From positions 12,689 to 65,171 of the forward strand of contig JAZJZK010000050.1 in the NCBI GenBank assembly GCA_040389905.1: 52,483 nt of DNA. Reading direction: 5' to 3'. The notes below the pieces were generated by a model. That model saw only the letters and a list, made by a program, of their open reading frames with translations, was not told the DNA's origin and did not search any database. The translations under genes and the position numbers were made by a program. Numbering within the stretch: position 1 is the stretch's first letter; each line of letters starts with the position of its first letter. Source of the stretch: Gemmatimonadota bacterium. GTDB lineage: Bacteria > Gemmatimonadota > Gemmatimonadetes > Gemmatimonadales > Gemmatimonadaceae. Positions 29,556-45,720 of this stretch are shown here, one piece after another.

Positions 29556-29569
29556 CAGCCGACGTCTCG

Positions 29570-29923: not shown

Positions 29924-29958
29924 AGGAGCCTCCATCGAGAATGCGTTTGTCTTACAGA

Positions 29959-29980: not shown

Positions 29981-30056
29981 CAGGCAAGTGCGGATTGCTC
30001 AGCCGCCAAGTTCGTTGACTCAGCGGAGGGCGCCCGGATGCGACTCCGGATTCACG

Positions 30057-30330
30057 CTAAGCGGCCGGCCACTGATAGAGAAACTTCTGAAATCCGGCAA
30101 ACACTCTACCGATGTCGTCAGGTCTGCCGAGGTCCTTCAGGGCGTCCGCAATCGAGTTCTGATACTTGAGACGCAGCAGCGGTGTGAGCTTCTCCTGATC
30201 CAGTTCCTGCACACCCTCCCTCACGTAGTGTGATAGCACGAAGTCCAGAAAGACCTGTTGCTTGCTGTTGAACTGGGTGCTGATCAACAGGCTGGCCTTT
30301 GACGCGCGGTTCTCGCGGACGGCCGTGACC
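30057..30330 (-). pseudogene. C-terminal fragment of a type I restriction R subunit (EcoEI_R_C-like)
   Basis: RENRASKA..KQQVFLDFVLSHYVREGVQELDQEKLTPLLRLKY..FAGFQKFLY; in-frame stop just upstream; rest of gene absent. Confidence 0.78.
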
Positions 30331-30650
30331 TATCCCCGTCGGTCAAGCAGCGCATCCGGAAGCATTTCACCGACCGGCCTGAGCTTCGGGTGCGCAGTTT
30401 CATCTCCATCCCGTTGGCGCCACCGCCGGGGGACGGCGACCCAATCGCCGTGCTGAACGTGCATCGCAGTCGTCCCGGCATGCTTCGGGATACCAACCCG
30501 GAGCAGCACTTTACCCCTGTCGTCAGTCCACTGCTCCGAATTCTCACCCGCGTCTTGATCGAGCTGCTGCGGCTCGAGGACACCCTAAGTGGCGGGCCCA
30601 CACCGGCCGGTGCCGAGACGGAGGACCTTCCGGGTGGGGCGGCTACCTGA
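30327..30650 (+). pseudogene. C-terminal fragment of a GAF-like protein
   Basis: RSFISIPL..PIAVLNVH strand pattern; no credible 5' end. Confidence 0.4.
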
Positions 30651-30871
30651 CACTGGCCGTGAGGCTTCATCAATGACGTACGAGGCTCCCGCCGTTCCGT
30701 CCGCAGCCGGTCTCCACCTAGCGTCCGACAACGAGCGAGCAGATGAGGGCACATGTCGCTCGTAAGTTGTCACCCCTATTCGACTTCGGGGTATTTGAAC
30801 AGGACCCTCAGTCTCGACCGTGGTGTCAATTGTTGCACGGTCCCGTGCTGTATCCAAGTCATCTGACGCTG

Positions 30872-30899
30872 TTGACAGGCCGTACGGGGTGCCTAACTT
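30872..30899 (+). promoter_or_regulatory. Putative sigma70 promoter
   Basis: TTGACA-N16-TAACTT. Confidence 0.45.
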
Positions 30900-30953
30900 G
30901 CCCCCATTAGCGTTCGCTGCGCCTACGCTGAGTCTTTTCTCAGGAGAAGCACT

Positions 30954-31160
30954 GTGTCGCACACCCCGCGCACCATCGCGAACTTCCGAAAGGCCGAGAG
31001 CCGTGCATTGGAGACGTTCCGCCGCGTACGCGAGCAGGGACCGTCCTCCATGGTTGTTCGTAACAAGACAGACGCGCGCCAAGTCGATCCGCATCGCCAG
31101 CCCGGTCGTTCCGACGTTTCGAATGGTGGCGATTCCAGCGTGGTGCGGGGCAAGCGCTAG
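30954..31160 (+). CDS. Hypothetical 68-aa basic protein
   Basis: AGGAG 7 nt before GTG and an upstream promoter-like motif; no family recognised. Confidence 0.4.
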   Translation: MSHTPRTIANFRKAESRALETFRRVREQGPSSMVVRNKTDARQVDPHRQPGRSDVSNGGDSSVVRGKR

Positions 31161-31234
31161 CGCCAACCCGGATCGAGCGGCGTCTTCACCTTCACCGATC
31201 ACGAGCGCGCTGACGTTCGGCGGGGCCTGATAGG

Positions 31235-32077
31235 TCACCCCAACGTCACGTCCGCCGTCATACGGCGCCCTCCATCCGGCCCACCTGCGCACAGCGTTGC
31301 CCCGCTCGGCGTCGGCGTCATGGACAGCACTGCCTCTTCGCCCGCGAATAAGGGACGGTACGCGCGGAACCGAAACCCCGCGACCGGTCGGCCCGTGTGA
31401 TGGCGCTGAAACAGGTCGAGCAGCAGCGTCGCAAGCAGTGGCCCGTGAACCACGAGACTTGGATACCCCTCGACTGCCGTTGCGTACGGTACGTCATAGT
31501 GTATTCGGTGGCTGTTGTACGTGAGCGCAGAAAAGCGGAACAAGAGCACTGCGTCCGGCCGCACGACGCGCTCCATCTCCGAGCGCTCGCACTCCTCGTG
31601 AGAGGATGACGCCACTGGCGCTCCGGCGACTGGTTTCTCCTGGTACACGAGGTCCTGCGCCTCCCGGATCGCGACGCCGTTCGCGGTGGAGATTTCGTGA
31701 TCGATCCTCACGAAGACCAACGGACCGGCCCTTCCCTGCTTCTGCGTGATCTCGGAGATGGTGGATCGCCGCTCCATCATCTCCCCAACGCGAATGGGCT
31801 TCAGGAACTCGATCGCGCTGCCGGCCCACATGCGCCGAGGAAGATCGATGGGCGGGAGAAAGTCTCCGCGTCGCGCGTGCCCGTCGGGACCAAGCGTGGA
31901 CTGCGACGCACGCTCCGCGAAATGCAGCCAATGGCCGAGCGGAGGAAGGGTGTCGTCGGGCCACGGTGGGTTGACGTGATCGAGCAGTGCCGCCAGCCGC
32001 TGGATGGCCGAGCCCGACACGACATCGCGCGCGCTCTTTTCTCTGCCGACCCAGTCGTGGAATGACGGATCGCTCAC
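31235..32077 (-). CDS. MaoC/HTD2-type hydratase (itaconyl-CoA or mesaconyl-C4-CoA hydratase-like)
   Basis: LPPLGHW, DGHARRGDFLPP..PRRMWAG, LFRFSALTYNSHRIHYD..Y..VEGYPSLVVHGPL. Confidence 0.9.
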   Translation of the reverse strand: MSDPSFHDWVGREKSARDVVSGSAIQRLAALLDHVNPPWPDDTLPPLGHWLHFAERASQSTLGPDGHARRGDFLPPIDLPRRMWAGSAIEFLKPIRVGEMMERRSTISEITQKQGRAGPLVFVRIDHEISTANGVAIREAQDLVYQEKPVAGAPVASSSHEECERSEMERVVRPDAVLLFRFSALTYNSHRIHYDVPYATAVEGYPSLVVHGPLLATLLLDLFQRHHTGRPVAGFRFRAYRPLFAGEEAVLSMTPTPSGATLCAGGPDGGRRMTADVTLG

Positions 32078-33231
32078 GCGAACTCCGCGCGGATTGCCGC
32101 GCCGTGTTCATCCAGCGCGGGCACGATGGCTTCCGTCGTCGGCGTGCTCGTGTCTCGCACGGGAGGGGCAACCGCGAGAATGTCACCCGACGCGCTCTTC
32201 AGGGTGCGGCGGCGCAACTGCGGATGGCTGGAAAGATCCGCCACGGAGTTGACCCTGCCGAATGCTGTACGCGCGACAGTCAGGCGACGGATAGTCTCGC
32301 CGGTCGCCAACTCGCGAAAGACGTCGCCGACCGCCGCATCGAGGTCGGTCCTGTTGCGCACGCGGTCGCTGTTCGTGCGGAAGCGCTCGTCCTTCGCGAG
32401 CTCCGGTCGTTCGAGCACGCCATCGCAGAACTGTGTCCACTCGCGGTCATTCTGAATGGCAATGACGAGCTGCGTTCCGTCGCCGGTTTCATAAGCGCCA
32501 TACGGCGCAATTGACGGATGACTCAGTCCAACGCGCGCTGGTGCGGCACCGCCGTACTCGTAGTGGAGCAAAGGCACGGTCATCCAATCGGCAAGGGCGT
32601 CGAACAGCGACACGGCTATTCCGGCCCCGAGGCCGGTGCGCGCTCGCCTGAGGAGCGCTTCGAGAATTGCCGAGTACGCGTTGAGACCGCAGGCGATGTC
32701 TGCCACCGAAACGCCGACCCGACCGGGTCCGCCGGCATCGCCGGTGATGGACGCCAGGCCGCTCTCGCATTGAATGAGGAGGTCGTACGCCTTCAAGTCG
32801 CGATAGGGCCCGCTCTCTCCGTAGCCGCTGATGTCGCAGGTGATGAGTCTCGGATGCTCCGCGCGCAGCGCGCCGGAATCGAAGCCCGCGCGCGCTGCGG
32901 CGCCCGGCGCCAGGTTCTGGACGAAGACATCAGCACGCGCGACGAGCCGCCGGAGGAGCGCGGCATTGGACGGAACACTGAAGTCCAGCACCAGTGACTC
33001 CTTTCCGGCGTTGAGCCAGACGAAGTACGCGCTTTCGCCATGCACGACATCATCGTACGCCCGAGCGAAGTCTCCTCCCGGGCGCTCGACCTTGATCACT
33101 CGTGCTCCGGCCTCCGCGAGGCGGCGGGTGCACAGTGGCGCGGCCACTGCCTGTTCGATGGCGACGACAAGTATGCCTTCGAGCGGGGCGGGAACAGCAG
33201 ATCCTTCGCTCTCGCTCAGGATGACAACCAT
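32074..33231 (-). CDS. Family III (CaiB/BaiF) CoA-transferase, itaconate CoA-transferase-like
   Basis: PLEGILVVAIEQAVAAP, GARVIKVERP.GDFAR, KAYDLLIQCESG, ADIACG; ATG overlaps the upstream TGA. Confidence 0.9.
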   Translation of the reverse strand: MVVILSESEGSAVPAPLEGILVVAIEQAVAAPLCTRRLAEAGARVIKVERPGGDFARAYDDVVHGESAYFVWLNAGKESLVLDFSVPSNAALLRRLVARADVFVQNLAPGAAARAGFDSGALRAEHPRLITCDISGYGESGPYRDLKAYDLLIQCESGLASITGDAGGPGRVGVSVADIACGLNAYSAILEALLRRARTGLGAGIAVSLFDALADWMTVPLLHYEYGGAAPARVGLSHPSIAPYGAYETGDGTQLVIAIQNDREWTQFCDGVLERPELAKDERFRTNSDRVRNRTDLDAAVGDVFRELATGETIRRLTVARTAFGRVNSVADLSSHPQLRRRTLKSASGDILAVAPPVRDTSTPTTEAIVPALDEHGAAIRAEFA

Positions 33232-33491
33232 CAGAACGACTTCGGAAGGCCCAGCACGTTCGTCGCCACGTGCGACAGGATCGAATTGGTCGAGATTGGT
33301 GCGATCTGACAGAGAGGCGTTTCCCGGAATTTTCGCTCGATGTCGTCCTCCTCGGCAAAAGGGAACCCGCCGTGCGTCTGCATGCACGTGTCGGCAGCAA
33401 ACCATGATACCTCCGACGCGAGCAGCTTCGCCATCTTCGCTTCCGTGCCGCCTCGAGGTAGCGGTGCGCCAGGCGATTGAACGAAAGCCAA
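33231..33491 (-). pseudogene. Decayed duplicate of the 3' end of the acyl-CoA dehydrogenase at 40587-41747
   Basis: MAKLLASEVSWFAADTCMQTHGGFPFAEEDDIERKFRETPLCQIAPISTNSILSHVATNVLGLPKSF aligns with the intact copy with several substitutions. Confidence 0.9.
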
Positions 33492-33564
33492 TGCCGCGAA
33501 AGTCCGCGAAGCTTTCTTGATTGCCCGCCGCAGGGTCCGCGGTAGATTCGTCCACGGGGGTTCT

Positions 33565-33930
33565 GTGCCGACCTCGTCCGCGACCAGCTACAGACATCGC
33601 TCGGCGCCACCTACACCATCGACCGCGAGTTGGGCGGCGGCATGTCGCGGGTGTTCCTCGCGGAAGAGACGCGCTTTCACCGCCGCGTTGTCATCAAGCT
33701 GCTCCTTCCGAGCTCGCGGCGGGACTCTCGGCCGAGCGGTTCGAGCGGGAGATGGCACTCGCCGCCGGCCCGCAGGAGCCGCACATCGTGCCCGTGCTCG
33801 CGGCGAGCGAGGCCGACGCGGGCTGCCGTGGTACACGATGCCCTATGTGGAAGGGGAGAGCCTCCGCAAGCGCATCGAGCGATGCCCCATGCTGACGCTG
33901 GAGGCTGTCTCGATACTGCGGGATGCGACA
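33565..33930 (+). pseudogene. Frameshifted N-terminal fragment of a Ser/Thr protein kinase
   Basis: Across three frames: YTIDRELGGGMSRVFLAEE..VVIKLL / ELAAGLSAERFERE..PHIVPVL / LPWYTMPYVEGESLR. Confidence 0.85.
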
Positions 33931-34001
33931 GGCGGGCATACGCTCACCGGGCTATCTGCTCCGCAAGTTTCTCTGCCGAGGCGCACATAAACCGGCGGTC
34001 C

Positions 34002-35237
34002 TCATCCTTCGAGTCGCTGGGCCTCTCGCCAACGTCTCGGCGTCGTCGAGGAGAAATCGAACTGTCCGGGTCGCCCGTACCCTAGCATCACGCGAACCCA
34101 CTCGTCCGCCAGTTCGTCGTCGCTGAAGTTCCAAGGCGTGGTCGGCTCAACGTTTGGCGCGTCGGCATACAGACTTTCGGCGGTAGCGGACCACAGTAGG
34201 TATTCGTTGGCGAAGATCTCAATTCCGGCCAATCGGTCAAATAGCTGACGGTTCATCTCGAAGTGGAAGAACGCCTCACCCAAGTCGGCGAGATTCGCCC
34301 TCACTTCGGGATCGCTGTATTCGCTGAACCCACCGGAAGCTGCGAGCAGGCTAAGCGGATCAGGACGCACTGATGCGGATGAGCCGCGAACAGGCTGGGT
34401 CTCTTCAAGCCAGAACGCCGTGGCGAGGCACGAACCGCTTCCACACGAGGACAAAGCTCGCGCCGGAGAGTTATTGCAGATTGCCACATGCCAATGACTG
34501 TGCTCCCTTCTCGTCAATTTGGCGACGGACAACACTGCGCGGAGATGCGGAAGGTCACGGAGTAACGCGGGCGCTCGCAGCCTGAGCACGAATGAGAGAT
34601 TCGTTAGAAGTGCGTCTCGCTCGTGCATGAACTCGAGCCGTCGCAGCCGTTCTTCGACCGCCGCGAAGGATCGCCCCATCAGGCTTTCGAGCTCGGAGCC
34701 CCATCGCGAGAAGAAGGCTGCTTGCTCGGCATCGCTCAACGGGATCTGCAGATACTGGAATCGTGCGGCGAGCCCTTCCGGACTGTCCAACGTGACGCGC
34801 AGGTTCTCCCGATCAAATACCTCAATTGTCCTACTGGCCGTGGCCCGACCGCTGGCGAGTAACTTCTGACGCTCTGTGACAGTGAGCTTCACGTTGGTCA
34901 TGAAGACGAAGACTTGGAACTCACCGGCGCGCTCGAGCGCCTCCTTCAGATCGGATGCAAATTTACCCCGCACCCAGCTCATGTCGCCGGCCGAGTCCTT
35001 AGGAGAGTTCCTGAATCCGATGGCGCCGACGGCGCGCTCGCCATTCGTGAACGTGGCCTCTAGATCGCGCGCACCGTCGGGACCGCCCATCGGCTGACGA
35101 GGTTGCACGTTCGTAAATCGACGGTCGAGGGAAAGTATCTGGACGCAGAGTCGCTCTCTCGCAGGCTGGTCGCCGTTCAGCCAATTCCGGAGTCGTTCGT
35201 CCGTGAGCTTCGGTTGGCCGTCAGGATCAGGAGGCAT
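34002..35237 (-). CDS. Hypothetical protein with a restriction-endonuclease-like N-terminus
   Basis: ERLCVQIL..PMGGPDGARD, KFASDL, FVFMTN, FDRENLR pattern seen in REase-like effector domains; intact 411-aa ORF. Confidence 0.6.
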   Translation of the reverse strand: MPPDPDGQPKLTDERLRNWLNGDQPARERLCVQILSLDRRFTNVQPRQPMGGPDGARDLEATFTNGERAVGAIGFRNSPKDSAGDMSWVRGKFASDLKEALERAGEFQVFVFMTNVKLTVTERQKLLASGRATASRTIEVFDRENLRVTLDSPEGLAARFQYLQIPLSDAEQAAFFSRWGSELESLMGRSFAAVEERLRRLEFMHERDALLTNLSFVLRLRAPALLRDLPHLRAVLSVAKLTRREHSHWHVAICNNSPARALSSCGSGSCLATAFWLEETQPVRGSSASVRPDPLSLLAASGGFSEYSDPEVRANLADLGEAFFHFEMNRQLFDRLAGIEIFANEYLLWSATAESLYADAPNVEPTTPWNFSDDELADEWVRVMLGYGRPGQFDFSSTTPRRWREAQRLEG

Positions 35238-35559
35238 AAGCGAGGAAGGGGAGGGTCGTAGGGGCCCAGCTCGTCAACCGTCGTACCGAACAGCGAAAGG
35301 TCGGCACATCGGCGCGAACGGCAAGAGGGCCGACCATCATCTGGCCGACCCCGGCGCGCCTCCCACTACGCCCTTGTTCGTAGGATGGGGCGCCTATTCG
35401 TCGTCGGTGTCCGTGGTCGGTGACTCCTCGAGCGCGCGCTTTCCTGCCTCGGTGATCTCGAAGCACACGGCGCGCGATGCGCTGGCGGTACTGGCGCTGG
35501 CGCCGCTCATGAGACGAGTTCGCCGCGCAGTAACGCGCGGAGGTCGCGGAGTCGCCCGA

Positions 35560-36327
35560 TGAAGTGCTCCACGTCCAAGCAGGGCCCTCGTTGTCCATGT
35601 TCGCGCACGTCGGGCACCACGTCATGCTCGATGAGGACCAAACCTTTGGGATGCTCGCGTGGCCGCACTCGGGGTTCCATGTCCATACGGCAGCCTGGAT
35701 CCCTGAGGATGATCGGCCTTCGCGAAACGTCGCGCGCGCTACGGCGCCCGGAATCCGGTCGCGCTGGAGCGGCTCACTTATGACCCGACCGCGAAGGCCG
35801 TGACCTACCGCTCCGACAAGTCCGAGGGCCCCACCGCGGGCACCGAGACCGCCGACCCGCTGGAGTTTCTCGCGCGGGTGCTGACCCACATCCCGGACAA
35901 GGGGCAGGTGACCACGCGGTACTGCGGGTGGTACGCCAATCGGCCGCGCGGGATGCGGCGCCGACCGCGGTGATCGACCAGATCCTGGCGCACCTCCGCA
36001 CCCGTGCCGCCGCCGAGGCGCGGCCCGGCGCGCGGCGTCCGCCCTCGATCGGCGCGTCAGTCGCTCGTGGCGCGCGTCGACGACCGGCCGCGAGCACCGC
36101 GCCCCCTGAACGTTCCCCGCGCGCGCCGGCGTAGAGCGGGGCCGTTCGTCGTGCGCGGCGGTCCCGAATCGGGCCTGCGCCAGAAGGGCAGCCACTCGCG
36201 GCGCGGCGGACCGAACGCGCCGCGAGCCGAGCAGACGGACGAAGAGCTCCGCCCGGACCATGCGCGGCGGCATAGCGCGTCGCGCCGCGTCGCGCGATAC
36301 TTCGACGTCCCCGATTGAAATTCCTAT
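35560..36327 (+). mobile_element. Degraded IS91/ISCR-family (Y2 transposase) element ending in an oriIS-like motif
   Basis: WPHSGFHVH; LERLTYD..VTYRSDK..DPLEFLARVLTHIPDKGQVTTRYCGWYAN; VIDQILAHL; GATTGAAATTCCTAT at 36313-36327. Confidence 0.85.
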
Positions 36328-36570
36328 CCCCAACAACGACTGCTGTTTCTGCGGACGACTCGTTGTCGCGCCAAGACACAAGGTGAGCTCGACCAGATTG
36401 TTCCTAAGTTGCAATATTCCCATACTCGTGCCAATCTAACTCAAGCGAATCGTGCCGTGCCGAAACCGAACGCACCACGTGGATCGCGCTGTTTGCCGTG
36501 CGGACGCTCGCACGATATGCGGTGACGCTCGGTCCCATCATCTCAGCGCTGTCACGTATTTACGAGACAA

Positions 36571-38400
36571 ATGAGAGAGCGAGGACAAACATTGACGCGA
36601 CTACTGTATCTTTGTGTCGGGTTTGCAGCCGCCGTCGGTTGCGACCAGTCGTCTTCAACGCCTGGTCCGGTCGCGCCTTCAAGGCCCGTGGCTGTTACGC
36701 ACCTCACGGTCTTCACTGATCCGTCGTCGACGGCGCTTGCAGTGGCACGCTCACCAGACGCGCAGCAGCTCCTGTTTGTTGGCAGAAGAGACGTTCTTGG
36801 CTCACCAGCAGTGATCGTGCAAGCGATTGTCCGTTTGCAGGACTCCGGCAAGCTTGCTTGGATCACGTACGACAAGTCGGGCGCTCCGCTCGGGATAGTT
36901 GATCAAGATGGCAACCAAGCAGTGTTCGAATTGAGTACTGACGGCTCTCGCTCAGTGACCTTCATTTCGAGAGACGGGCGAGTACAGGTCAGTGCGCCGT
37001 TTGCCTTGCCGAACTCGCAGTCTTCATCTCTTGTCACAGGAAACAATGGAGCGCCGCCTGTTTCACTGACGCTCGCCGCGTCGGTCGTCAAGGCCTCCGC
37101 GTGTGAGACGATCAGCACACTTGCGGGCGCCCTTTGTCCATCAAATCAAGCAGCGGCAACTGCACTATTGGTGGCATGCCTAAGGATTCCTGCGCCCACC
37201 CTATTCAAGATCGAGTGCGAGGGCCTTGTGGCTGTCTTCATAGCTGCTTGCAAGATTGTCGCGATCGGTAATCCGGGAAGCGATCAACTACCACCAGGGG
37301 CACCCGGACCCTCGGTCTGCGATGAGAACTCAGATCGCCAGCCACCCCCTCCGCCGCCCCCATGCGTGGCTCGCGTCGGGCTGATGGATCTATATGACCC
37401 CAATACTCCGAACGTATTGTCCGTTGCCGCCGAGGCACGTTCCCTGGCGTTTTCTGTGGTTCCGCAGGGGTCGGGAGGTTGTGGCTGGACTGCAGCAAGC
37501 CTTGCGCCTTGGATGACCATTAAGGGGAGCGGAAGCGGCAACAGTTTTGGCGGCATTCTACTGGTGGATGTTTCCGAAAACTCTGGCAATGCTCGAACAG
37601 GCACGTTGGTGGTCGCTGGACAAGCAATTACGGTAAATCAGGCCGCGTGTACTGGTGCTGGAGACGTTGCTTGTCCTATAATCGCAGTTTCGTGCCTCGA
37701 CAGTCCGAAACAGCTATGTGGGATCGACATCGTGACAGGATTCTCTGCGTTGTTTGTAAACGATCCTGGCCTTGCTCCGATCTCCCAGTCGATCCGTGTG
37801 ACGAACGCAGGCAGCGGACTGCTCTCCGGCCTCTCGATCGAAGTCTATTATTCTCAAGGAGTTCCGCATTGGCTTGATGCCTCGTTAGACGCCAATCGCG
37901 CGCCAGCGACAATCGTCCTTAGGCCAGTGTCGCCTTTGGTCTTGCCTCCTTTGACCGCCTATTCGGCACTCGTTATCGTTAGGTCGACGCCGGCAGTGAA
38001 GAAAAGCCCAACTTATATTAGTACCGCTATCATCTCGCCCAATGCTCCGTCGGCAATTGCGTTGCAGAATGGGGTGCCGGTGCAAGCAACCAGTGGGCCG
38101 CCGCTGTGCACCTTCGCAAGCGTTGCATGCCGGTATTACAGCATAGTAGTGCCCGCTAACGCTACGGAGCTTACAACATCCGTCATGGGCGGAATGGGCG
38201 GCTCGATCCAGGTCCACGCCATCAGCCGCTATTCGGGAATCCCCTGGGCGCCCTCCTGTTCTGCGGGTCTAGTCTCACCAGGTACAGCCAGCTGCACAAT
38301 TCGAGAGCTAGTCGCTGGCACGTACATCATCAACTTTCAGGCCGACTTTCCGGCGTTAGGTTCTGGCGAATCGTTCCTGCTAACGGCCCAGTTTCGGTAG
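36571..38400 (+). CDS. Putative lipoprotein with BACON-like and PPC-like domains
   Basis: Lipobox AVGC; CGWTAAS.APWMTI..ARTGTLVVAGQAITVNQA; LQNGVPV..YYSIVVPANATEL; visibly lower GC than flanks. Confidence 0.72.
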   Translation: MRERGQTLTRLLYLCVGFAAAVGCDQSSSTPGPVAPSRPVAVTHLTVFTDPSSTALAVARSPDAQQLLFVGRRDVLGSPAVIVQAIVRLQDSGKLAWITYDKSGAPLGIVDQDGNQAVFELSTDGSRSVTFISRDGRVQVSAPFALPNSQSSSLVTGNNGAPPVSLTLAASVVKASACETISTLAGALCPSNQAAATALLVACLRIPAPTLFKIECEGLVAVFIAACKIVAIGNPGSDQLPPGAPGPSVCDENSDRQPPPPPPPCVARVGLMDLYDPNTPNVLSVAAEARSLAFSVVPQGSGGCGWTAASLAPWMTIKGSGSGNSFGGILLVDVSENSGNARTGTLVVAGQAITVNQAACTGAGDVACPIIAVSCLDSPKQLCGIDIVTGFSALFVNDPGLAPISQSIRVTNAGSGLLSGLSIEVYYSQGVPHWLDASLDANRAPATIVLRPVSPLVLPPLTAYSALVIVRSTPAVKKSPTYISTAIISPNAPSAIALQNGVPVQATSGPPLCTFASVACRYYSIVVPANATELTTSVMGGMGGSIQVHAISRYSGIPWAPSCSAGLVSPGTASCTIRELVAGTYIINFQADFPALGSGESFLLTAQFR

Positions 38401-38403
38401 CTT

Positions 38404-39445
38404 TCATTTCATTGTCCGCTCCGATGGTGTCAATGGCTGCGGATTGGCTGACGGTGTCGAAGCAGAAGAGTACGGATCCTTGCCCGGGTACATGCCGCTC
38501 GCCTGGAACCAGATCTGCTTCGCCACAGTGTCGACCTTATCCACGTCGCGCACGACCCATGATCCCCAGGTGATCTGCTTCTTCGCCTTGCCGGTCACCC
38601 CACCATAGAGATAGAGGTGGTTCCAGCCGTCGCGCTCGGACATCCACACGACCTCGCATCCGTGGGCGATGTCGAAGCGGTATCTCTTCGCCGAATACTC
38701 GAAGAAGGTCGGTGACTGTTCGTCGATCACGGCGCGCGCCTTTCCCGATGCGGCGTCGATCTCGATGACGCGATACACCTGATGCCCGCGCTGATTGTAT
38801 TCGAACACCATCGCTCGACCATCCTTTCGCCAATTGAGCGGCGTGACGTCATACGCATTCGGAAGAGCGCGTTGTCGACGGCAATCTGTCGCTTGCTCTC
38901 GAGCTCGAAAAGACGGGCAGCTCGACGTCGAGCACGTCGCCGGGCTTGTTGTAGAGTCGCGAGGAGTGTTTCGGCTGGACCTGATCCTCGGGAGACGACT
39001 CGACGTAGTACACCTCTCGGCGGAATCCGGGACGAACGCGATAGGCAGCGATCCGCTTCGAGTGGGGCGACCATGCTATGGAGCGCATGGCGTACGCATT
39101 GCCTTCACTGCCATCGGTGCTGAGGAAGAAGCCGTCCTTCGCGCCGACCCTCTTCACATGGATGTTGAAGTTGCGGACTGACGCATCCCACTGGCTGTCG
39201 GGTGAGACGCGCGGCGGAACGTTGTCGTTGGGCAACACGCCGTAGAGTCCACCACAGAAATCGCGTCCAGGCCCCTGACCGCCCGCCGCCGGTGCCGGGG
39301 CGCAGCGATAGTCGCTGAGCGTACAGCGGAAGCGAACGCTGTCGGGCGAGAATGTGATCGCCGAGCGGTCGCCGGCGAATGTGAGGTTGTTGAGCGGCAG
39401 TGAGTCGGCGATGATCGGGCGCTTCAGGATCGTGGTTAGCGACTG
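38404..39445 (-). pseudogene. Internal fragment of a dipeptidyl-peptidase IV (S9B) gene, frameshifted
   Basis: [63 protein letters not shown]; lacks N-terminus and catalytic domain. Confidence 0.85.
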
Positions 39446-40412
39446 GCCGGCGCGGAAGCAATGAGTTCTCGATCGAGGCGGCGGTGATCGCCAAGCGGCT
39501 CGAGGGTGTCCCCGTGAGGGTGATGTGGACACACGAGCAGGACTTCGCGCACGACAACTACCGTTCGAACGGGTGGCACTTCCTTACCGCGGGGCTCGAT
39601 GGCGCCGGAAAGGTCGTGGCGCTGCACGACGCGTTCGTGAAGATGCAGGGTGGTCCGGGAGACATGAGCGCGAGCGGCTTTCCGTTCACGGCGATCCCGG
39701 GATCGAAGGTCGTGTCGAGCAAATTGCCGGCGGGTATTCCCACGGGATGCTGGCGCTCGCCTGGCGAGAACGGGAACACGTGGGCCACGCAGTCGTTCGT
39801 CGACGAGCTCGCTCATACGGCGGGCCGAGGCCCCAAGGCATTCGCGCTCGACTTGCTCCACGCGGTTCCCGCTGGCGCGGCCGGCCGCGGCTTCAATAGC
39901 GCGAAGATGAAGGCGGTGCTCGAGCTCGCGACGGAGAAAGCCGGCTAGGGTCGTTCGCGGCCGCGCGGTCACGGGCAGGGCCTGGCGATCACGCATACGA
40001 ACAACGCGTACGTCGCGATCGTCGCGGATGTGACGGTGAGTCGCGCTGGCGAGCTCGCGATCACGCGACTCATCGCGGCTGTCGACTGCGGCACCGTCAT
40101 CAACCTCAGTGCGGCAGAGAGTCAGGTGCAGGGCGCCATCTCGACGGCATCAGCGCGGCGTGGTTCCAGAAGATTCTCATCGAGCGCGGCGCGGCCGCGC
40201 AAACAAACTTCCACGAATACCCGATGCTGCGCATGCAGCACTCGCCGCCTGTCGTCGACGTTCATTTCGTCAAGTCGACAGCTGCGCCGACTGGATTGGG
40301 TGAGCCCGGGCTCCCCGCGGCGGCGCCCGCGGTGTGCAACGCGATCTTCGCGGCGACGGGCAAGCGAATTCGCACGCTGCCAATCACAGACGTCGATCTG
40401 AAGTGGGCGTGA
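39445..40412 (+). pseudogene. C-terminal fragment of a xanthine-dehydrogenase-family (IorB-like) molybdopterin subunit
   Basis: PVRVMWT, IPTGCWRSPG, QSFVDELAH, in-frame TAG at 39946-39948, [13 protein letters not shown], frameshift, [23 protein letters not shown]. Confidence 0.88.
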
Positions 40413-40528
40413 GAATCACCGCATGATGAGCCATACCCGTCGATCGTCAGCGTCGCTCTGGGCGAATGATGACCCGCGGGCTAAACTAACCGCCAAGGCG
40501 TTCCAGCGATTCCGCGCCCGCCACAACG

Positions 40529-40576
40529 GCAGATCCCTCGCTTTCGCTCGGGATGACAACCGCGCTCGGGACGACA
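40529..40576. repeat. REP-like half element with partial tandem duplication
   Basis: gcagatccctcgctttcgctcgggatgacaaccgcgctcgggacgaca; counterpart at 33197-33226. Confidence 0.75.
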
Positions 40577-40586
40577 ACCGGTATCA

Positions 40587-41747
40587 TCAGAACGACTTCG
40601 GAAGGCCCAGCACGTTCGTCGCCACGTGCGACAAGATCAGGTTCGTCGAGATCGGTGCGATCTGATAGAGACGCGTTTCCCGAAATTTTCGCTCGATGTC
40701 GTACTCCTCGGCGAACGCGAACCCGCCGAACGTCTGCATGCACGTGTCGGCAGCAAACCATGATGCCTCCGACGCGAGCAGCTTCGCCATGTTGGCTTCC
40801 GTGCCGCACGGTGTGCCGTCGTCGAACAGGCGCGCCGCCTGGTTCACCATGAGCGACGCGGCGTGGGTCTGCACGAATGCACGCGCGAGCGGAAACTGGA
40901 CGCCCTGGTTCTGTCCGATCGCGCGGCCGAACACCTGTCGCTCGCTGGCATACCGGCTTCCGTGGTCGAGAAAGAATCGCGCGTCGCCGATGCATTCCGC
41001 GGCGATCAGGATTCGTTCGGCGTTCATGCCGTCGATGATGTAGCGGAACCCCTGTCCCTCCACGCCGATGCGATTCGCCACCGGCACGCGAAGGTCATCG
41101 AAGAACAGTTCCGTCGTGGCGTGATTGATCATCGTGCGGATCGGCCTGATCGTGAGGCCGTTGCCGACCGCCTGCCGGAGATCCACCAGCAGCACGCTCA
41201 TGCCATCGGTCGGCTTCGCGACGGACTCGCGCGCGCTTGTGCGGACGAGCAGCACCATGAGATCTGAATGCTCCGCTCGCGAGATCCACACCTTCTGGCC
41301 GCTGACGACATAGTGTTCACCGTCGCGACGCGCGAACGTCTCGATCCGTGTCGTGTCGGTTCCGCTGGTCGGTTCGGTCACCCCGAATGCCTGAAGCCGA
41401 AGGTCGCCGCGAGCGATCGCCGGTAGATACGCCGCCTTCTGCTCCTTGCTCCCGTGCCGCAGCAGGGTGCCCATGGTGTACATCTGCGCATGACAGGCAC
41501 CACCATTGCACCCCGAGCGATGAATCTCCTCGAGAATGGCGCTCGCGACGGCAAGGCCGAGCCCCGACCCACCGTACTCCTCGGGAATGAGGACGGACAG
41601 GAAGCCGGCGGCGGTGAGCGCACGGACGAACTCCGTGGGATACTCGCGAGCGACGTCGAGCGCCCGCCAGTACGGTCCGCCGAACCCGGCGCACAGCGCG
41701 CGTACCGCGTGGCGGATCTCGAGATGATCGGAGACTTCCAGGTTCAT
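40587..41747 (-). CDS. Acyl-CoA dehydrogenase
   Basis: IPEEYGGSGLG, GVTEPTSGTD, GQKVWIS, MNAERILIAAE, RQVFGRAIGQNQ, QTFGGFAFAEEY; ATGA overlap with the ALDH gene. Confidence 0.94.
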   Translation of the reverse strand: MNLEVSDHLEIRHAVRALCAGFGGPYWRALDVAREYPTEFVRALTAAGFLSVLIPEEYGGSGLGLAVASAILEEIHRSGCNGGACHAQMYTMGTLLRHGSKEQKAAYLPAIARGDLRLQAFGVTEPTSGTDTTRIETFARRDGEHYVVSGQKVWISRAEHSDLMVLLVRTSARESVAKPTDGMSVLLVDLRQAVGNGLTIRPIRTMINHATTELFFDDLRVPVANRIGVEGQGFRYIIDGMNAERILIAAECIGDARFFLDHGSRYASERQVFGRAIGQNQGVQFPLARAFVQTHAASLMVNQAARLFDDGTPCGTEANMAKLLASEASWFAADTCMQTFGGFAFAEEYDIERKFRETRLYQIAPISTNLILSHVATNVLGLPKSF

Positions 41748-43234
41748 CGGATCGAGAACGGATCGGGAGATGTCAATCCCAGGCTCGTCCAGACGGTCTT
41801 CGTCGAAAGGAACTCGTCGATCGCGTGCAAACCGTTCTCCCGCCCGTATCCGCTCGCCTTGCGACCACCGAATGGCGCCATGAAGCTGACCGCCCGGTAA
41901 GTGTTGATCCACACCATGCCAACGTCGAGATCGTCGGCCATCCGGTGCATGCGTCTTACATCCTCCGTCCAGACACCGGCCGCGAGTCCATACGGATTGT
42001 CATTGGCGATCGCGAGCGCGTCCTCCTCGTCGTCGAACGCGATCACCGACAGTACGGGCCCGAAGATCTCCTCACGGGCGATGATCATGTCGTTGGTCAC
42101 GTTGGTGAAGATGGTGGGCTCCACGAACAGCCCCGAGCCACATCCGTCCACAGTCGCCGGCCCTCCACCGAGACGCACCGTTGCGCCTTGCTGCTTCCCC
42201 GACGCCACATAGCCCAGCACCTTCGCATGCTGTGGTGGCGTCGTGATTGGACCGACCTGAGTGTCGTCACGCATCGGATCACCGAGCTGCGCGCGCCGCG
42301 CGAATGCCACGAGTTCGTCGACGAACTCGTCGTGAATGGAGCGCTGAACGAGGAGACGCGATCCGGCGATGCACGTCTGCCCGCTCGCGGCAAAGATGCC
42401 GGCGACCGCACCCTTCACTGCGTCGTCGCGCCGCGCATCCGCGAACACGATGTTCGCGGACTTTCCGCCGAGCTCCATCAAGGTCGGCGTGAGGTTGCGC
42501 GCCGCAGCTTCGGCGACCCGTCGTCCTGTCGACTCACCGCCGGTGAAGGCCACCTTCCGTATCTCCGGATGCGCGACCAGAGGTGCGCCCGCCTCATCAC
42601 CGAGACCGGTGATGACGTTGATCACGCCGGCGGGAAAGCCTGCTTCCTCAGCGAGATGCACGAGCTCCAGCGCAGATGCCGACGTGAACTCCGACGGTTT
42701 CCAAACGACCGTGTTCCCCGCGGCCAGTGCGGGCGCGAGCTTCCACGTGGCCAGGAGGAGCGGTGAGTTCCACGGCGTGAGGATGGCCACCGGCCCGAGT
42801 GGCTCGCGCTTTGTGTAGGTGAAGTAGCCCGGCTTGTCGAGCGGAAGCACCGACCCTTCGATCTTGTCCGCGAGGCCACCGAAGTATTCCCACCATCGCG
42901 GGATGTATCGGAGCTGCGCGCGCATCTCCGTAATGAGCTTGCCGTTGTCCGTGACTTCGATTTCGGCCAGTCGATCCGCATCGCGCGCGATGAGCGCGCC
43001 CAGACGTACGAGGAGGCGGCCGCGATCGCTCGGCGTCATCTTACGCCACGATGGATGCCGGAATGCTCGCTGCGCCGCCAGCACTGCGGCGTTCACGTCG
43101 TCCGCGTCGCAGCGCGGCACCGACGCCCACACTTTACCCGAGAATGGGTTGACGGAGTCGAGACGCCGGCCACTCGCGGCCTCGCACCATTCGCCGTCGA
43201 TGTAGGCGCGGTAGTGGGTGGGTTCAGTGATCAA
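41744..43234 (-). CDS. NAD(P)-dependent aldehyde dehydrogenase
   Basis: PWNSP, KPSE, FTGG, ELGGKS, GQTCIAGSR, EEIFGPV, SGYGRENG. Confidence 0.95.
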   Translation of the reverse strand: MITEPTHYRAYIDGEWCEAASGRRLDSVNPFSGKVWASVPRCDADDVNAAVLAAQRAFRHPSWRKMTPSDRGRLLVRLGALIARDADRLAEIEVTDNGKLITEMRAQLRYIPRWWEYFGGLADKIEGSVLPLDKPGYFTYTKREPLGPVAILTPWNSPLLLATWKLAPALAAGNTVVWKPSEFTSASALELVHLAEEAGFPAGVINVITGLGDEAGAPLVAHPEIRKVAFTGGESTGRRVAEAAARNLTPTLMELGGKSANIVFADARRDDAVKGAVAGIFAASGQTCIAGSRLLVQRSIHDEFVDELVAFARRAQLGDPMRDDTQVGPITTPPQHAKVLGYVASGKQQGATVRLGGGPATVDGCGSGLFVEPTIFTNVTNDMIIAREEIFGPVLSVIAFDDEEDALAIANDNPYGLAAGVWTEDVRRMHRMADDLDVGMVWINTYRAVSFMAPFGGRKASGYGRENGLHAIDEFLSTKTVWTSLGLTSPDPFSIR

Positions 43235-43811
43235 GGACGCTCACCTCTTCGAGGCCGAGCGACCGTCGGAACCTCGACTTCAGCGTTACGCCATCACGCT
43301 CCGGTAGCACCCTCGGCTCGTCGCGCGACTCGATGCGGATGCGCGCGAAGAGCGGCCCGCGGCGTTCGTGCATCGCCGCTCGGAATTCCTGAAGTTGCTC
43401 ACCGTCTTCCACGTCGTGCACCAGCGCTATGCCGCACGCTGTCGCGACGTTCTGGAGACGCGCGCGGCCGGCGGTGTGGCTCGGCTGCATTCCCGTCTCA
43501 CCGTAGTGACCGTTGTCCAACACCGCGATGGCGAGATTTGGGGGGTTCCGGTGCGCCACGGTCGCCAGCGATCCCAGGCCCATGAGCATTTCGCCATCGC
43601 CCGTCACCACGAGGACCTTCCGCTTCGGCTGCGCGAGCGCGAGACCGAGTCCCACCATGACGGCTCCACCCATCGCGCCCCACAAGTAGAAATTTTCGTC
43701 GGAATCACCCGCCGCTGCGACGTCCCATGTCGGAGAACCGAGTCCAGAGACGACGAGCAGGTCCGGTCTCTCGCGGAGAAGCGTGGCGATCACATCTCGG
43801 CGGTTGAGCAT
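43224..43811 (-). CDS. TPP-dependent decarboxylase beta subunit (ComE / phosphonopyruvate decarboxylase-like)
   Basis: FYLWGAMG; GDGEMLMGLGSL..LDNGHYGETGMQ TPP-binding motif. Confidence 0.9.
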   Translation of the reverse strand: MLNRRDVIATLLRERPDLLVVSGLGSPTWDVAAAGDSDENFYLWGAMGGAVMVGLGLALAQPKRKVLVVTGDGEMLMGLGSLATVAHRNPPNLAIAVLDNGHYGETGMQPSHTAGRARLQNVATACGIALVHDVEDGEQLQEFRAAMHERRGPLFARIRIESRDEPRVLPERDGVTLKSRFRRSLGLEEVSVLDH

Positions 43812-43813
43812 GA

Positions 43814-44359
43814 TCACCAACGCTTTTTCCCAATGAGACATTGCGACAACAGGACGGCCACGCCCACCGATTTCGTAAACGCCGTGTCGATGGCCGCCGC
43901 GACAACACCCTCCACCTCGTCTTCCGTTTCCACACGCGAGACGTGCACGTCGCACAAGCGAAGCACGTCGGGGGTCATTGTGCCCATGGGGACCTGCCAT
44001 GGATTGAACTCCTCCCACTCGCCACGCATGGTCACCAGCGTGAGGAAGGGGAAACGGCAGGTCTTGATGAGCGACAGCATGTTGATGCAATTCCCGACAC
44101 CGCTGGATTGCATGAGGAGCGCCGCGCGGTCGCCACCGAGCCACGCCCCCGCGGCGAGTGCCACACCTTCCTCTTCGGTGGTCAGCAGCACGTCGTCGAT
44201 TTCGCTGTCGTCGCGGCAGCGCTGAATCAGGCGCGCATGGCCGGCGTCCGGTACATAGCCCACCTGCTTGATTCCGCCCGCCTTGAAACATGCGAAGATC
44301 TGGTCGGGCCACGCCGCCTCGACAGGCGAGCGAAGTTCGTCAGGTTGACGGGTCTGCAT
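43814..44359 (-). CDS. TPP-dependent decarboxylase alpha subunit (ComD-like)
   Basis: YVPDAGH, TTEEEGV, MQSSGVGNCINML, MRGEWEEFNPWQVPMG. Confidence 0.9.
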   Translation of the reverse strand: MQTRQPDELRSPVEAAWPDQIFACFKAGGIKQVGYVPDAGHARLIQRCRDDSEIDDVLLTTEEEGVALAAGAWLGGDRAALLMQSSGVGNCINMLSLIKTCRFPFLTLVTMRGEWEEFNPWQVPMGTMTPDVLRLCDVHVSRVETEDEVEGVVAAAIDTAFTKSVGVAVLLSQCLIGKKRW

Positions 44360-44380
44360 GTGGGGGACTAGGTTCGCGGA

Positions 44381-45697
44381 ATGTCCGCACAATTGCAAGG
44401 CAGTTTGGCCCGCGAACTCGCCGGTTGGTGCAGGCGTCTCACTGTCGCAGATGACGTTGCCGAGCGCGGCCAGATGTTGCTCGCAGACTTCACGGCGTGC
44501 ATGCTCGGCGGGCTCGACGAGCCAGTGAGTCGTTCGACCATGCGTGCACTCGGCCCGGATCGCGGTGCGGAATCGACCGCGTGGATCATGGGCACGAGCG
44601 GCCACGCGCTGGAGTTGGATGACACGCATGAAGAATCCAGCCTGCACGCGGGCACCGTTATCTGGCCGACGGTGTTGGCGCTCGCTCCCGAGTGCGGCGC
44701 GTCGTGCACCGATGCGCTCCGCGCAGCCGTCGTCGGCTACGATGTCACGTCGTTCCTCGGCAAGCTCGCCGGGGCGAAGGCAACCTACGAGCACGGTTTT
44801 CATCCCACGGGCGTCTACGGCGCGGTCGGTGCGGCTGCCGCAGCTGGATGTCTCCTGAATCTCGACGAAGACGCACTCGTCTCGGCAATGGGCATCGCGT
44901 GCTCGCTCGCCAGCGGCACGCTCGCGTTCCTCGCCGATGGAAGCTGGACGAAGCCGATGCACGCGGGCGCGGCAGCGGCACATGGCATTCGAGCCGCGCG
45001 ACTCGCGCAGGAAGGATTCCACGGTCCCGAGAGTGCGCTCGATGGAGCGGCTGGCCTGACGTGGGCATTTGCCGGCCAGCGAATCGAACGGGATGCACTT
45101 GCCCTTCCCGCGTTCGGAAGCGGCATTCGCGAAACCAGCATCAAGCTCTATCCCTGCTGCCGGTACAATCACGGACTCCTCGACCTGCTTCGGCCCGAAT
45201 CGGTGGGCGTGCTCGACCCGTCAACGATCGAACGCATCACGTGTACGGTGCTGTCGGGGGGATTCCTGCTTGTCGCCTCGCCCGCAGCGGACAAGGTCGT
45301 GGTGAGCAATCAGGTCGCAGCGCAATTCAGCGCGCCCTTCGGTGCTGCGCTCATGCTGACGCGGCACTCCGCGACGCTCCGAGAGTATCGCCAGGCATCG
45401 GTTCTCGGACCGGAATTGCGTCCGCTGATGGAGCGCGTCGAGTGTGTCACCTCGGACGAGCTCGATCGCGCCTACCCGGGCAAGTGGGGAGCCGCCATTT
45501 CGATCACGCTAAACGACGGACGACAGATCGAGCGATCGACACCATTCATGCGAGGAAGCCCGCACGCGCCGCTGACCTGGGATGGGTTGCAGCAGAAGAT
45601 GGCCGACCTGATTGGGGCGTCACTTGCCGCGGATGTGGTGCGGTACGCTCGGTCTTTCGCCGGGCCACAGGCCCCAATCACATTTCCGATTGAATAG
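44381..45697 (+). CDS. MmgE/PrpD family protein
   Basis: HALELDDTH..LHAG, GFHPTG, TKPMHAG, IKLYPCCRYNH, AQFS.PF, RGSP. Confidence 0.93.
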   Translation: MSAQLQGSLARELAGWCRRLTVADDVAERGQMLLADFTACMLGGLDEPVSRSTMRALGPDRGAESTAWIMGTSGHALELDDTHEESSLHAGTVIWPTVLALAPECGASCTDALRAAVVGYDVTSFLGKLAGAKATYEHGFHPTGVYGAVGAAAAAGCLLNLDEDALVSAMGIACSLASGTLAFLADGSWTKPMHAGAAAAHGIRAARLAQEGFHGPESALDGAAGLTWAFAGQRIERDALALPAFGSGIRETSIKLYPCCRYNHGLLDLLRPESVGVLDPSTIERITCTVLSGGFLLVASPAADKVVVSNQVAAQFSAPFGAALMLTRHSATLREYRQASVLGPELRPLMERVECVTSDELDRAYPGKWGAAISITLNDGRQIERSTPFMRGSPHAPLTWDGLQQKMADLIGASLAADVVRYARSFAGPQAPITFPIE

Positions 45698-45720
45698 GCT
45701 TCATCGCGCACTGATGACTC

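What the first reader, a model, noticed from the sequence alone, without database searches (positions are those of the whole stretch)
31235..45697. Itaconate/methylsuccinate-like CoA module extended by a ComDE-like decarboxylase and ALDH: candidate new 2-oxo-acid catabolic route
Seen: decarboxylase alpha, beta, ALDH and acyl-CoA dehydrogenase are coupled by overlapping or abutting stops and starts; CoA-transferase and MaoC hydratase follow in the same way; MmgE/PrpD is divergent. Known: hydratase, acyl-CoA dehydrogenase, MmgE/PrpD and family III CoA-transferase co-occur in the Pseudomonas aeruginosa itaconate operon, whereas ComDE-type enzymes are normally tied to sulfopyruvate or phosphonopyruvate metabolism. 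Inference: a substituted 2-oxo-acid (for example methyl- or methylene-2-oxoglutarate, or a sulfonated analogue) is decarboxylated, oxidised to the acid, CoA-activated, dehydrogenated and hydrated. No citramalyl-CoA lyase is visible in the window.
Basis: partly seen in the sequence, partly recalled or inferred. Interest (0 to 1): 0.72.

Follow-up and report, generated by a model that had tools for sequence, protein, structure and literature searches.

The report
Decarboxylase feeder for methylsuccinate breakdown
A two-piece thiamine enzyme that databases label a sulfonate or phosphonate decarboxylase sits, here and in several unrelated bacteria, beside genes resembling the known methylsuccinate-breakdown set and likely supplies that acid from a methyl-branched glutamate-like compound, but in this genome a 7-kb insertion cuts the operon in two and no final lyase gene was found.

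Summary
All seven genes are real and intact, but not contiguous. [quoted passage not shown] A 95%-identical strain has them adjacent. No CitE-type lyase was found in this 85%-complete genome.

The link recurs: 8 of 15 inspected plasmid loci carry decarboxylase + ALDH + dehydrogenase + CoA-transferase (Bosea in the same order, plus lyase). Genomes with the decarboxylase usually hold this dehydrogenase (29/38 against 44/163; 45/50) but rarely Xsc (7/50) or PEP mutase (0/50). The enzyme misses ComDE and Ppd cut-offs and is 34-37% identical to roseobacter ComDE. Neighbours (aspartate-type transaminase, oxoprolinase, glutamate dehydrogenase family, IDH) make 2-oxoglutarate-like acids.

Best reading (0.55): methyl-2-oxoglutarate → methylsuccinate semialdehyde → methylsuccinate → citramalyl-CoA; no activity is shown. 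Against: most copies stand alone (7/80 near the dehydrogenase), and the nearest solved fold is an imino-acid decarboxylase. The scan reported this idea before on another genome (e1-5077633). It is a new variant of a known pathway.

The parts
44381..45697 (+). MmgE/PrpD protein, 438 aa; likely epimerase of a 2-substituted succinate
   Evidence: PF03972/PF19305. IDS-epimerase H85, H99, Y145, H150, K198, K266 kept; D88 is E. Long branch outside the two clades that sit beside Mcd-like genes.
43814..44359 (-). ThDP decarboxylase alpha (PYR) subunit, 181 aa
   Evidence: TIGR03845 117 bits against cut-off 147.95; invariant TTEEEG glutamates; nearest folds AzcBC and RhiEF.
43224..43817 (-). ThDP decarboxylase beta (PP) subunit, 197 aa, with GDG-X26-N motif
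   Evidence: PF02775; TIGR03846 142 against 221.5; 35-37% identical to roseobacter ComE. The motif definition is recalled.
41744..43234 (-). Aldehyde dehydrogenase, 496 aa; likely (methyl)succinate-semialdehyde dehydrogenase
   Evidence: PF00171; below every cut-off among the 25 of 43 NCBIfam families shown, SafD 264 against 700; 52-62% identical to ALDHs beside the decarboxylase elsewhere.
40587..41747 (-). Acyl-CoA dehydrogenase, 386 aa, Mcd-like
   Evidence: 63-70% identical to ACADs in Ich/Ict/Ccl clusters, 79% to Sphingobium; desulfinase model 188 against 600.
33452..40524 (.). Insertion of about 7.1 kb: kinase fragment, 411-aa unknown ORF, IS91-like transposase remnant (35719-35970), 609-aa BACON-domain ORF, DPP-IV and molybdopterin-enzyme fragments
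   Evidence: absent in L153; one 7,236-nt contig at even depth in run X1.
33229..33451 (-). Decayed duplicate of the ACAD 3' end (223 nt, 92%)
   Evidence: 7 synonymous against 8 non-synonymous codon differences from the intact copy.
33193..33229 (-). Dispersed short repeat read in frame as the CoA-transferase N-terminus; second copy at 40525-40561
   Evidence: D4; 103 short-blastn hits in the genome; also at the CoAT start in L153.
32074..33231 (-). Family III CoA-transferase, 385 aa, Ict-like
   Evidence: PF02515; 49-64% identical to transferases of the linked clusters; 41 synonymous against 26 non-synonymous changes versus L153.
31235..32077 (-). MaoC-type hydratase, 280 aa, Ich-like
   Evidence: Its only PDB hits are 8HUC and itaconyl-CoA hydratase 8KHG, E 5e-60.

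Best explanation
The window holds a once-continuous operon, now split by a 7-kb insertion, whose two-subunit thiamine enzyme likely decarboxylates a methyl-branched 2-oxoglutarate to methylsuccinate semialdehyde, which the aldehyde dehydrogenase would oxidise to methylsuccinate for a predicted epimerase, CoA-transferase, dehydrogenase and hydratase to convert to citramalyl-CoA. Shown: the genes, their coupling, the insertion, the continuous form in a 95%-identical strain, recurrence of the linkage, and genome-level co-occurrence. Established elsewhere (PMC12290011): Msi, Ict, Mcd, Ich and Ccl degrade both methylsuccinate isomers via mesaconyl-C4-CoA and (S)-citramalyl-CoA to acetyl-CoA and pyruvate. 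Inferred: that the window's four CoA-module proteins do the same; that the decarboxylase substrate is 3- or 4-methyl-2-oxoglutarate (4-methylene or 4-hydroxy-4-methyl analogues would give itaconate or citramalate and enter the same module); and that it comes from methyl(pyro)glutamate through the oxoprolinase, racemase and transaminase genes seen in fuller clusters. In this genome the last step and the amino-acid entry genes were not found, so the route is probably incomplete here.
For: Linkage: 8 of 15 inspected plasmid loci have alpha-beta + ALDH + ACAD (63-79%) + CoAT (Sphingobium, Mesorhizobium, Deinococcus, Ralstonia, Sinorhizobium, Bosea, C. necator N-1, Haematobacter), and 6 of these 8 have a CitE-type lyase. 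Bosea reads alpha-beta-ALDH-ACAD-CoAT-MaoC-lyase-pyruvate carboxylase. In an evenly drawn order sample, 3 of 38 alpha genomes have the ACAD about 1.2 kb away with ALDH, CoAT and MaoC. A 35%-identical alpha paralogue sits in the same module in G095. Co-occurrence: ACAD in 29/38 alpha genomes against 44/163 without (Fisher p 3e-8), 9/10 against 94/291 (p 4e-4) and 45/50; Xsc 7/50 and PepM 0/50. Upstream neighbours: aspartate-type transaminase (596 against cut-off 617), PxpA/PxpABC in 5 of 15 plasmid loci and 3 of 9 further loci, Glu/Leu/Phe/Val dehydrogenase and Asp/Glu racemase, IDH, aconitase and RraA/HMG-aldolase-like genes. MaoC's only PDB relatives are Ich. PrpD keeps the catalytic His and Tyr of the two-base epimerases.
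Against: No activity is shown for any member. Only 7 of the 80 best alpha loci have a 63-68% ACAD within 10 kb, 2 an ALDH and none a PrpD (many loci are short). None of 40 ACAD loci from the window's own family has alpha or beta nearby, nor do any of 80 ALDH metagenome loci. The window's beta nests (SH-aLRT 98) among mostly stand-alone copies, not with the Bosea or Mesorhizobium copies. Some copies lie in unrelated settings such as xanthine/urate clusters. The co-occurrence tests do not control for kinship or genome size. The ACAD and PrpD could not be compared directly with PA0879 or PA0881, and the PrpD falls outside the Mcd-adjacent clades. No lyase, LamB/PxpA, DAO-like or VOC partner was found in G000.
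Confidence: 0.55

Rival explanations
1. The family is a broad 2-oxo(di)acid decarboxylase, perhaps acting on plain 2-oxoglutarate, that is recruited into many catabolic clusters. The methylsuccinate module is one client among several and says little about the preferred substrate.
For: Most copies stand alone among housekeeping genes. Contexts vary: purine, amidohydrolase, monooxygenase, UbiA/DHQS clusters. Oxoprolinase, glutamate dehydrogenase family and IDH genes all yield unbranched 2-oxoglutarate as well (established knowledge). Three-domain ThDP enzymes take its place in 5 of 40 family ACAD loci.
Against: Stand-alone genomes still hold the Mcd-like ACAD in 45 of 50 cases. Plain succinate would need no epimerase, dehydrogenase or hydratase, yet these genes are translationally coupled here and in Bosea.
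Confidence: 0.2
2. Like AzcBC, the enzyme decarboxylates a cyclic alpha-imino acid (a methyl-pyrroline-2-carboxylate made by a D-amino-acid-oxidase-like enzyme). The ALDH would make a methyl-lactam, the PxpABC/LamB complex would open it, and transamination would give methylsuccinate semialdehyde.
For: The top Foldseek match is the TPP-dependent alpha-imino acid decarboxylase AzcB/AzcC (9U8Q/R/S; TM 0.72, 24% identity). DAO-family and Pxp genes recur beside it. The ALDH scores highest against betaine-aldehyde models.
Against: 24% identity does not fix a substrate, and RhiEF scores almost as well. The linked transaminase is class I aspartate-type, with Asp/Glu racemase-family genes in two loci. 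The window has no oxidase or lactamase between decarboxylase and CoA module.
Confidence: 0.1
3. It is a true sulfopyruvate or phosphonopyruvate decarboxylase, or acts on a longer sulfur or phosphinate analogue of 2-oxoglutarate, and the CoA module handles the heteroatom acid.
For: Best NCBIfam hits are TIGR03845/TIGR03846; database names say so. One Bradyrhizobium locus has a cysteine-dioxygenase-family gene nearby.
Against: All curated cut-offs are missed. Identity to roseobacter ComDE is 34-37%, and that enzyme lies outside the clade. Xsc 7/50, PepM 0/50, and neither over cut-off in G000. The ALDH is not SafD and the ACAD not the desulfinase. Lyase and pyruvate carboxylase in fuller clusters point to citramalyl-CoA.
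Confidence: 0.08
4. Whatever the family does, this genome's copy is a decaying relic that no longer works as a pathway. This is compatible with the best explanation.
For: Insertion inside the operon, no lyase found, no LysR gene where 1 kb of LysR separates the arms elsewhere, a higher non-synonymous share in CoAT (41:26) than in ACAD (34:10) or ALDH (60:14), and a 20-nt frameshift deletion in the MaoC of strain L153.
Against: All seven frames are open. The upstream arm is under purifying selection. The genome is 15% incomplete and holds one HMGL-like gene that was not tested.
Confidence: 0.4

Closest known systems
P. aeruginosa PA0878-PA0883 / C. necator itaconate-methylsuccinate cluster (Ich, Mcd, Msi, Ict, Ccl; PMC12290011, PMC9875883)
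   Same: MaoC whose only PDB relatives are Ich, an ACAD 63-70% identical to those of five-gene-type clusters, a family III CoA-transferase and an MmgE/PrpD with the two-base residues.
   Different: Adds a split ThDP enzyme and an ALDH upstream; no Ccl found; the MmgE lies outside the Mcd-adjacent clades; the operon is split by an insertion.
Sulfopyruvate decarboxylase ComDE (M. jannaschii, as cited in PMC12141560; roseobacter comDE, Leisingera locus L108)
   Same: Separate PYR and PP subunits from adjacent genes; best NCBIfam hits.
   Different: Below cut-offs; 34-37% identity; separate clade; L108 sits among TRAP, HisD-like dehydrogenase and alpha-hydroxy-acid oxidase genes, which I read from memory as a DHPS/sulfolactate cluster, whereas ours sits among dicarboxylate genes.
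Phosphonopyruvate decarboxylase RhiEF (PDB 9IZ3/9IZ4)
   Same: Heterodimeric ThDP decarboxylase fold (TM 0.70; beta E 2.5e-19).
   Different: About 21% identity for alpha; no PEP mutase in 50 of 50 genomes tested; catabolic, not biosynthetic, context.
AzcB/AzcC alpha-imino acid decarboxylase (PDB 9U8Q/R/S)
   Same: Closest solved fold to alpha (TM 0.72); shows that this split family takes substrates without sulfonate or phosphonate.
   Different: 24% identity; known to me only from the PDB title (no paper found).

Membership tests
Itaconate/methylsuccinate degradation cluster | Itaconyl-CoA hydratase (Ich) homologue | tested here: met
   8KHG, E 5e-60, residues 2-248; hydratase motif aligned.
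Itaconate/methylsuccinate degradation cluster | (S)-citramalyl-CoA lyase (CitE family) in the cluster or genome | tested here: not met
   No PF03328 match and no tblastn hit with three cluster lyases; genome 84.6% complete. Present in 6 of 8 full plasmid clusters.
Itaconate/methylsuccinate degradation cluster | ACAD orthologous to Mcd (PA0879 / E6A55_22600) | tested here: inconclusive
   63-70% identical to ACADs of clusters with Ich, Ict and Ccl; the characterised sequences were not held, so no direct comparison.
Methylsuccinate isomerase (Msi) | Catalytic His and Tyr plus carboxylate-binding His, Asp/Glu, His, Lys, Lys | tested here: met
   H75, E78, H89, Y136, H141, K191, K255; same nine-site pattern as 22 of 23 PrpDs beside family ACADs, the 23rd being truncated.
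Methylsuccinate isomerase (Msi) | Membership of the Msi clade (authors' HMM score above 550) | tested here: inconclusive
   HMM not available. The protein is 27-35% identical to Mcd-adjacent PrpDs and on its own long branch, so it probably falls below the cut-off.
Itaconate/methylsuccinate degradation cluster | Activity on methylsuccinate or itaconate CoA esters | not testable with these tools
   Needs enzyme assays.
Sulfopyruvate decarboxylase ComDE | TIGR03845 / TIGR03846 curated cut-offs | tested here: not met
   117 against 147.95 and 142 against 221.5.
Sulfopyruvate decarboxylase ComDE | A sink for sulfoacetaldehyde (Xsc or SafD) | tested here: not met
   Xsc 294 against 676 in G000, over cut-off in 7/50 alpha genomes; window ALDH 264 against SafD 700.
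Phosphonopyruvate decarboxylase Ppd/RhiEF | TIGR03297 cut-off and PEP mutase in the genome | tested here: not met
   113 and 61 against 312.5; PepM 42 against 320 in G000, 0/50 genomes.
Split (PYR + PP) ThDP decarboxylases | Adjacent PYR subunit with conserved Glu and PP subunit with GDG-Xn-N motif | tested here: met
   beta follows alpha in 80 of 80 loci.
3-Sulfinopropanoyl-CoA desulfinase | NF042439 cut-off | tested here: not met
   188 against 600.

The most novel reading that the evidence does not exclude
A widespread, mislabelled subfamily of split ThDP decarboxylases (an estimated 4,300 genome contigs match its motifs) is a branched-2-oxoglutarate decarboxylase. With its ALDH it forms the first aerobic natural route that makes methylsuccinate, itaconate or citramalate from methyl-, methylene- or hydroxymethyl-type glutamates and their lactams, and explains why soil bacteria keep methylsuccinate-specific enzymes.
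Probability: 0.45. Interest if true: 0.75.

Novelty: new variant of a known kind. Interest (0 to 1): 0.55.

Why it matters
PMC12290011 reports methylsuccinate isomerase in 1.56% of GTDB species, yet names only anaerobic itaconate reduction by gut bacteria as a natural source of methylsuccinate. A decarboxylase-ALDH feeder would supply an aerobic source and a catabolic route for branched glutamates. It would also correct the 'sulfopyruvate/phosphonopyruvate decarboxylase' label on thousands of proteins, which can inflate sulfonate and phosphonate pathway counts in metagenomes. Two small proteins and a handful of substrates test it. This particular copy is a poor model; the Bosea and Mesorhizobium clusters are more complete.

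Tried and rejected
Contiguity of all six minus-strand genes: rejected. Insertion as assembly error: rejected for run X1, which is not independent. The PrpD's 16-residue N-terminal shortfall as recent decay: rejected, an 88%-identical relative shares it. ALDH as a marker of the cluster: 0 of 80 metagenome loci had alpha; they carry lactonase-like, hydroxyacid-dehydrogenase and other PrpD genes. Rfam: no match in 29000-47000. Promoter and terminator scan of 43900-44900: none. PADLOC: no hit for 4 proteins. Expression: no RNA holder listed. The careful beta tree did not finish, so the quick tree is used; alpha, ACAD and PrpD trees are FastTree only. Paper searches listed no paper describing this feeder; subscription journals are largely missing from the library. 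No residue-level test of sulfonate or phosphonate binding was possible; the RhiEF passages read give no such residues. Supplementary file 1 of PMC12290011 was unreadable and one spreadsheet too large; they may bear on Msi membership. No complex prediction was run, since alpha/beta would pass by likeness to solved pairs.

Full report
1. Observation. On the minus strand, alpha (44359-43814), beta (43817-43224), ALDH (43234-41744) and ACAD (41747-40587) overlap by 4, 11 and 4 nt. PrpD (44381-45697) is divergent, 21 nt from the alpha ATG. The CoA-transferase (33231-32074) and MaoC (32077-31235) are coupled to each other but lie 7,356 nt downstream, behind a 223-nt, 92%-identical copy of the ACAD 3' end. 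That copy differs from the intact gene at 7 synonymous and 8 non-synonymous codons. Between them are an IS91-like Y2_Tnp remnant, DPP-IV and molybdopterin-enzyme fragments, a stretch 70-74% like four other loci of the genome that I read as a kinase fragment, and two unrelated ORFs. Contigs of run X1, possibly the source sample, tile the region at depth 12-17 without mismatch. Metagenome contig L153 (94.6% identical) has ALDH-ACAD-CoAT-MaoC adjacent, with a 20-nt deletion in its MaoC. The organism is probably a Gemmatimonadaceae member; this is inferred from G056 (same family as G000) pairing with a named MAG.

2. The CoA module. The MaoC's only PDB relatives are 8HUC and itaconyl-CoA hydratase 8KHG (E 5e-60). 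The ACAD is 63-70% identical to ACADs in clusters that also hold Ich-, Ict- and Ccl-like genes, and 79% to Sphingobium, with which it forms a supported clade. The characterised PA0879 and PA0881 sequences were not held, so orthology is by proxy. The PrpD keeps IDS-epimerase H85, H99, Y145, H150, K198 and K266, with Glu for D88; PMC12290011 ties the His/Tyr pair to two-base epimerisation. Its nine-site pattern equals that of 22 of 23 PrpDs beside family ACADs, but it sits on a long branch outside both such clades. No CitE-family lyase was found in the 84.6%-complete genome; one HMGL-like gene exists. PMC12290011 treats an Ich homologue without a lyase as probably serving another pathway, while passages of PMC13491972 report multiple functional Ict, Ich and Ccl homologues in C. 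necator.

3. The decarboxylase. It has the split PYR/PP layout; beta follows alpha in 80 of 80 loci. It misses the ComD, ComE and Ppd cut-offs and is 34-37% identical to roseobacter ComDE, which lies on a long branch outside the clade (quick and FastTree trees only). An AlphaFold model of alpha (pLDDT 82) matches the alpha-imino acid decarboxylase AzcBC best (TM 0.72, 24%), then RhiEF. The family is large: all 8,000 scored candidates passed E 1e-20, and about 4,300 genome contigs are estimated to match its motifs. It is patchy among kin: 2 of 100 relatives have this type and 9 have a 33-36% paralogue.

4. Linkage, for. I inspected 15 plasmid loci, hand-picked by genus from 57 alpha and 72 beta records. 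Of these, 13 have the ALDH, 8 have ALDH + ACAD + CoAT, 6 of those 8 a lyase, and 5 a PxpA gene. Bosea F3-2 repeats the window's order and adds lyase and pyruvate carboxylase; C. necator N-1 also has both. In 201 genomes drawn evenly from the order of G390, 38 have alpha and 73 the ACAD; 29 of 38 overlap, against 44 of 163 (p 3e-8), and 3 of 38 are about 1.2 kb apart with ALDH, CoAT and MaoC. In 301 genomes of the family of G388 the figures are 9 of 10 against 94 of 291 (p 4e-4), with one pair 12 kb apart. In the genomes of the first 50 of the 80 best alpha loci, the ACAD is in 45, Xsc over cut-off in 7 and PEP mutase in 0. Kin are not independent, genome size was not controlled, and group searches scored only 6-9 ACAD candidates per genome. 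G226 and G536 are unpublished and enter only the tallies 43/300 and 103/301.

5. Linkage, against. Among the 80 best alpha loci, only 7 have a 63-68% ACAD within 10 kb, 2 an ALDH, 2 a MaoC and none a PrpD; most stand among housekeeping genes. Of 43 of 300 family relatives with the ACAD, 40 were fetched; none has alpha or beta, and 5 have a three-domain ThDP enzyme. None of 80 ALDH metagenome loci has alpha. The window's beta groups with mostly stand-alone copies, so the operon looks like a mosaic. Two loci place alpha-beta-pxpABC in purine clusters.

6. Mechanism. Genes upstream in fuller clusters mostly make 2-oxoglutarate-like acids: an aspartate-type transaminase, oxoprolinases and Asp/Glu racemase-family genes, a Glu/Leu/Phe/Val dehydrogenase, IDH, aconitase and RraA/HMG-aldolase-like genes, and an alpha-hydroxy-acid oxidase. 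Genes downstream are those of C5 branched diacid breakdown. The simplest bridge is non-oxidative decarboxylation of 3- or 4-methyl-2-oxoglutarate to methylsuccinate semialdehyde, oxidation to methylsuccinate, epimerisation, CoA transfer, dehydrogenation to mesaconyl-C4-CoA and hydration to citramalyl-CoA. The last four steps are established for the pseudomonad enzymes (PMC12290011) and inferred here; the first two are inferred from context only. I put this at 0.55, a generalist or plain 2-oxoglutarate decarboxylase at 0.2, an imino-acid route through a lactam at 0.1 and a sulfur or phosphorus substrate at 0.08. Separately, there is about a 0.4 chance that this copy no longer works as a pathway: it is split, lacks a lyase and entry genes, and CoAT shows more non-synonymous change (41:26) than ACAD (34:10) or ALDH (60:14).

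7. Novelty. Searches listed no paper on this feeder. 'Thiamine' does not occur in PMC12290011 or PMC13491972 and occurs once, in a medium recipe, in PMC9875883. What I saw: PMC12290011, parts 1, 3 and 4 of 9, term passages, a supplement search and part 2 of supplementary file 3; PMC9875883, PMC13491972 and PMC12141560, passages only; all others as listings; AzcBC from PDB titles only. The scan reported the same idea for another genome (e1-5077633); I had stated my reading before seeing it, and it is not independent support. Notes e1-3106688 and e1-5214458 show the split enzyme in other settings and fit the generalist rival; I did not test them.

8. Verdict. A real, recurring but unproven extension of the known methylsuccinate pathway, present here in a disrupted copy. 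New variant of a known kind; interest 0.55.

Noticed in passing
window:44360-44380: Only 21 nt separate the divergent alpha and PrpD start codons, so each promoter must lie inside the other gene. A 93%-identical contig of run X2 spans the junction. Five pairs of top PrpD and top alpha homologues share contig lengths, which suggests the pairing recurs.
   Followed up: partly
window:33193-33229 and 40525-40561: A dispersed short repeat (103 blastn hits in the genome) is read in frame at the CoA-transferase N-terminus, also in L153, and marks the end of the duplicated stretch.
   Followed up: partly
G000:C23:241-2101 (L096): A second, 36%-identical split ThDP pair followed by a cyclase-family gene; the same trio occurs in relatives G055 and G051.
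   Followed up: partly
L245:5341-11719 and L246:3173-14322: alpha-beta-pxpABC lies inside a xanthine dehydrogenase / urate oxidase cluster in two genomes; not explained by the best reading.
   Followed up: no
L109 and L235 (Bradyrhizobium plasmids from peanut nodules): Racemase, transaminase, PxpABC with biotin carboxylase, CoAT, Ich-like gene, Glu/Leu/Phe/Val dehydrogenase, ALDH and alpha-beta, with no ACAD. This would fit 4-methyleneglutamate to itaconate; that peanut makes 4-methyleneglutamine is recalled, not checked.
   Followed up: partly
L172, L175, L202, L208: The same ALDH subfamily recurs with metallo-beta-lactamase-fold genes, a 3-hydroxyisobutyrate-dehydrogenase-family gene, a CMD-family gene and PrpDs lacking the catalytic Tyr; possibly a lactone-entry pathway.
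   Followed up: partly
window:34002-35237: Intact 411-aa ORF inside the insertion with no Pfam, NCBIfam or PADLOC hit.
   Followed up: partly
window:28977-29935: PrlF/YhaV-type toxin-antitoxin pair just downstream of the cluster.
   Followed up: no
window:3202-21263: Two very large Ig-repeat (Big_1) proteins of 2,698 and 2,311 aa.
   Followed up: no
window:45721-51691: CusA/CzcA RND efflux operon convergent on the PrpD gene.
   Followed up: no
L099:13265-13651: A short ORF resembling, by eye, the window's IS91-like remnant lies beside the G095 cluster.
   Followed up: no
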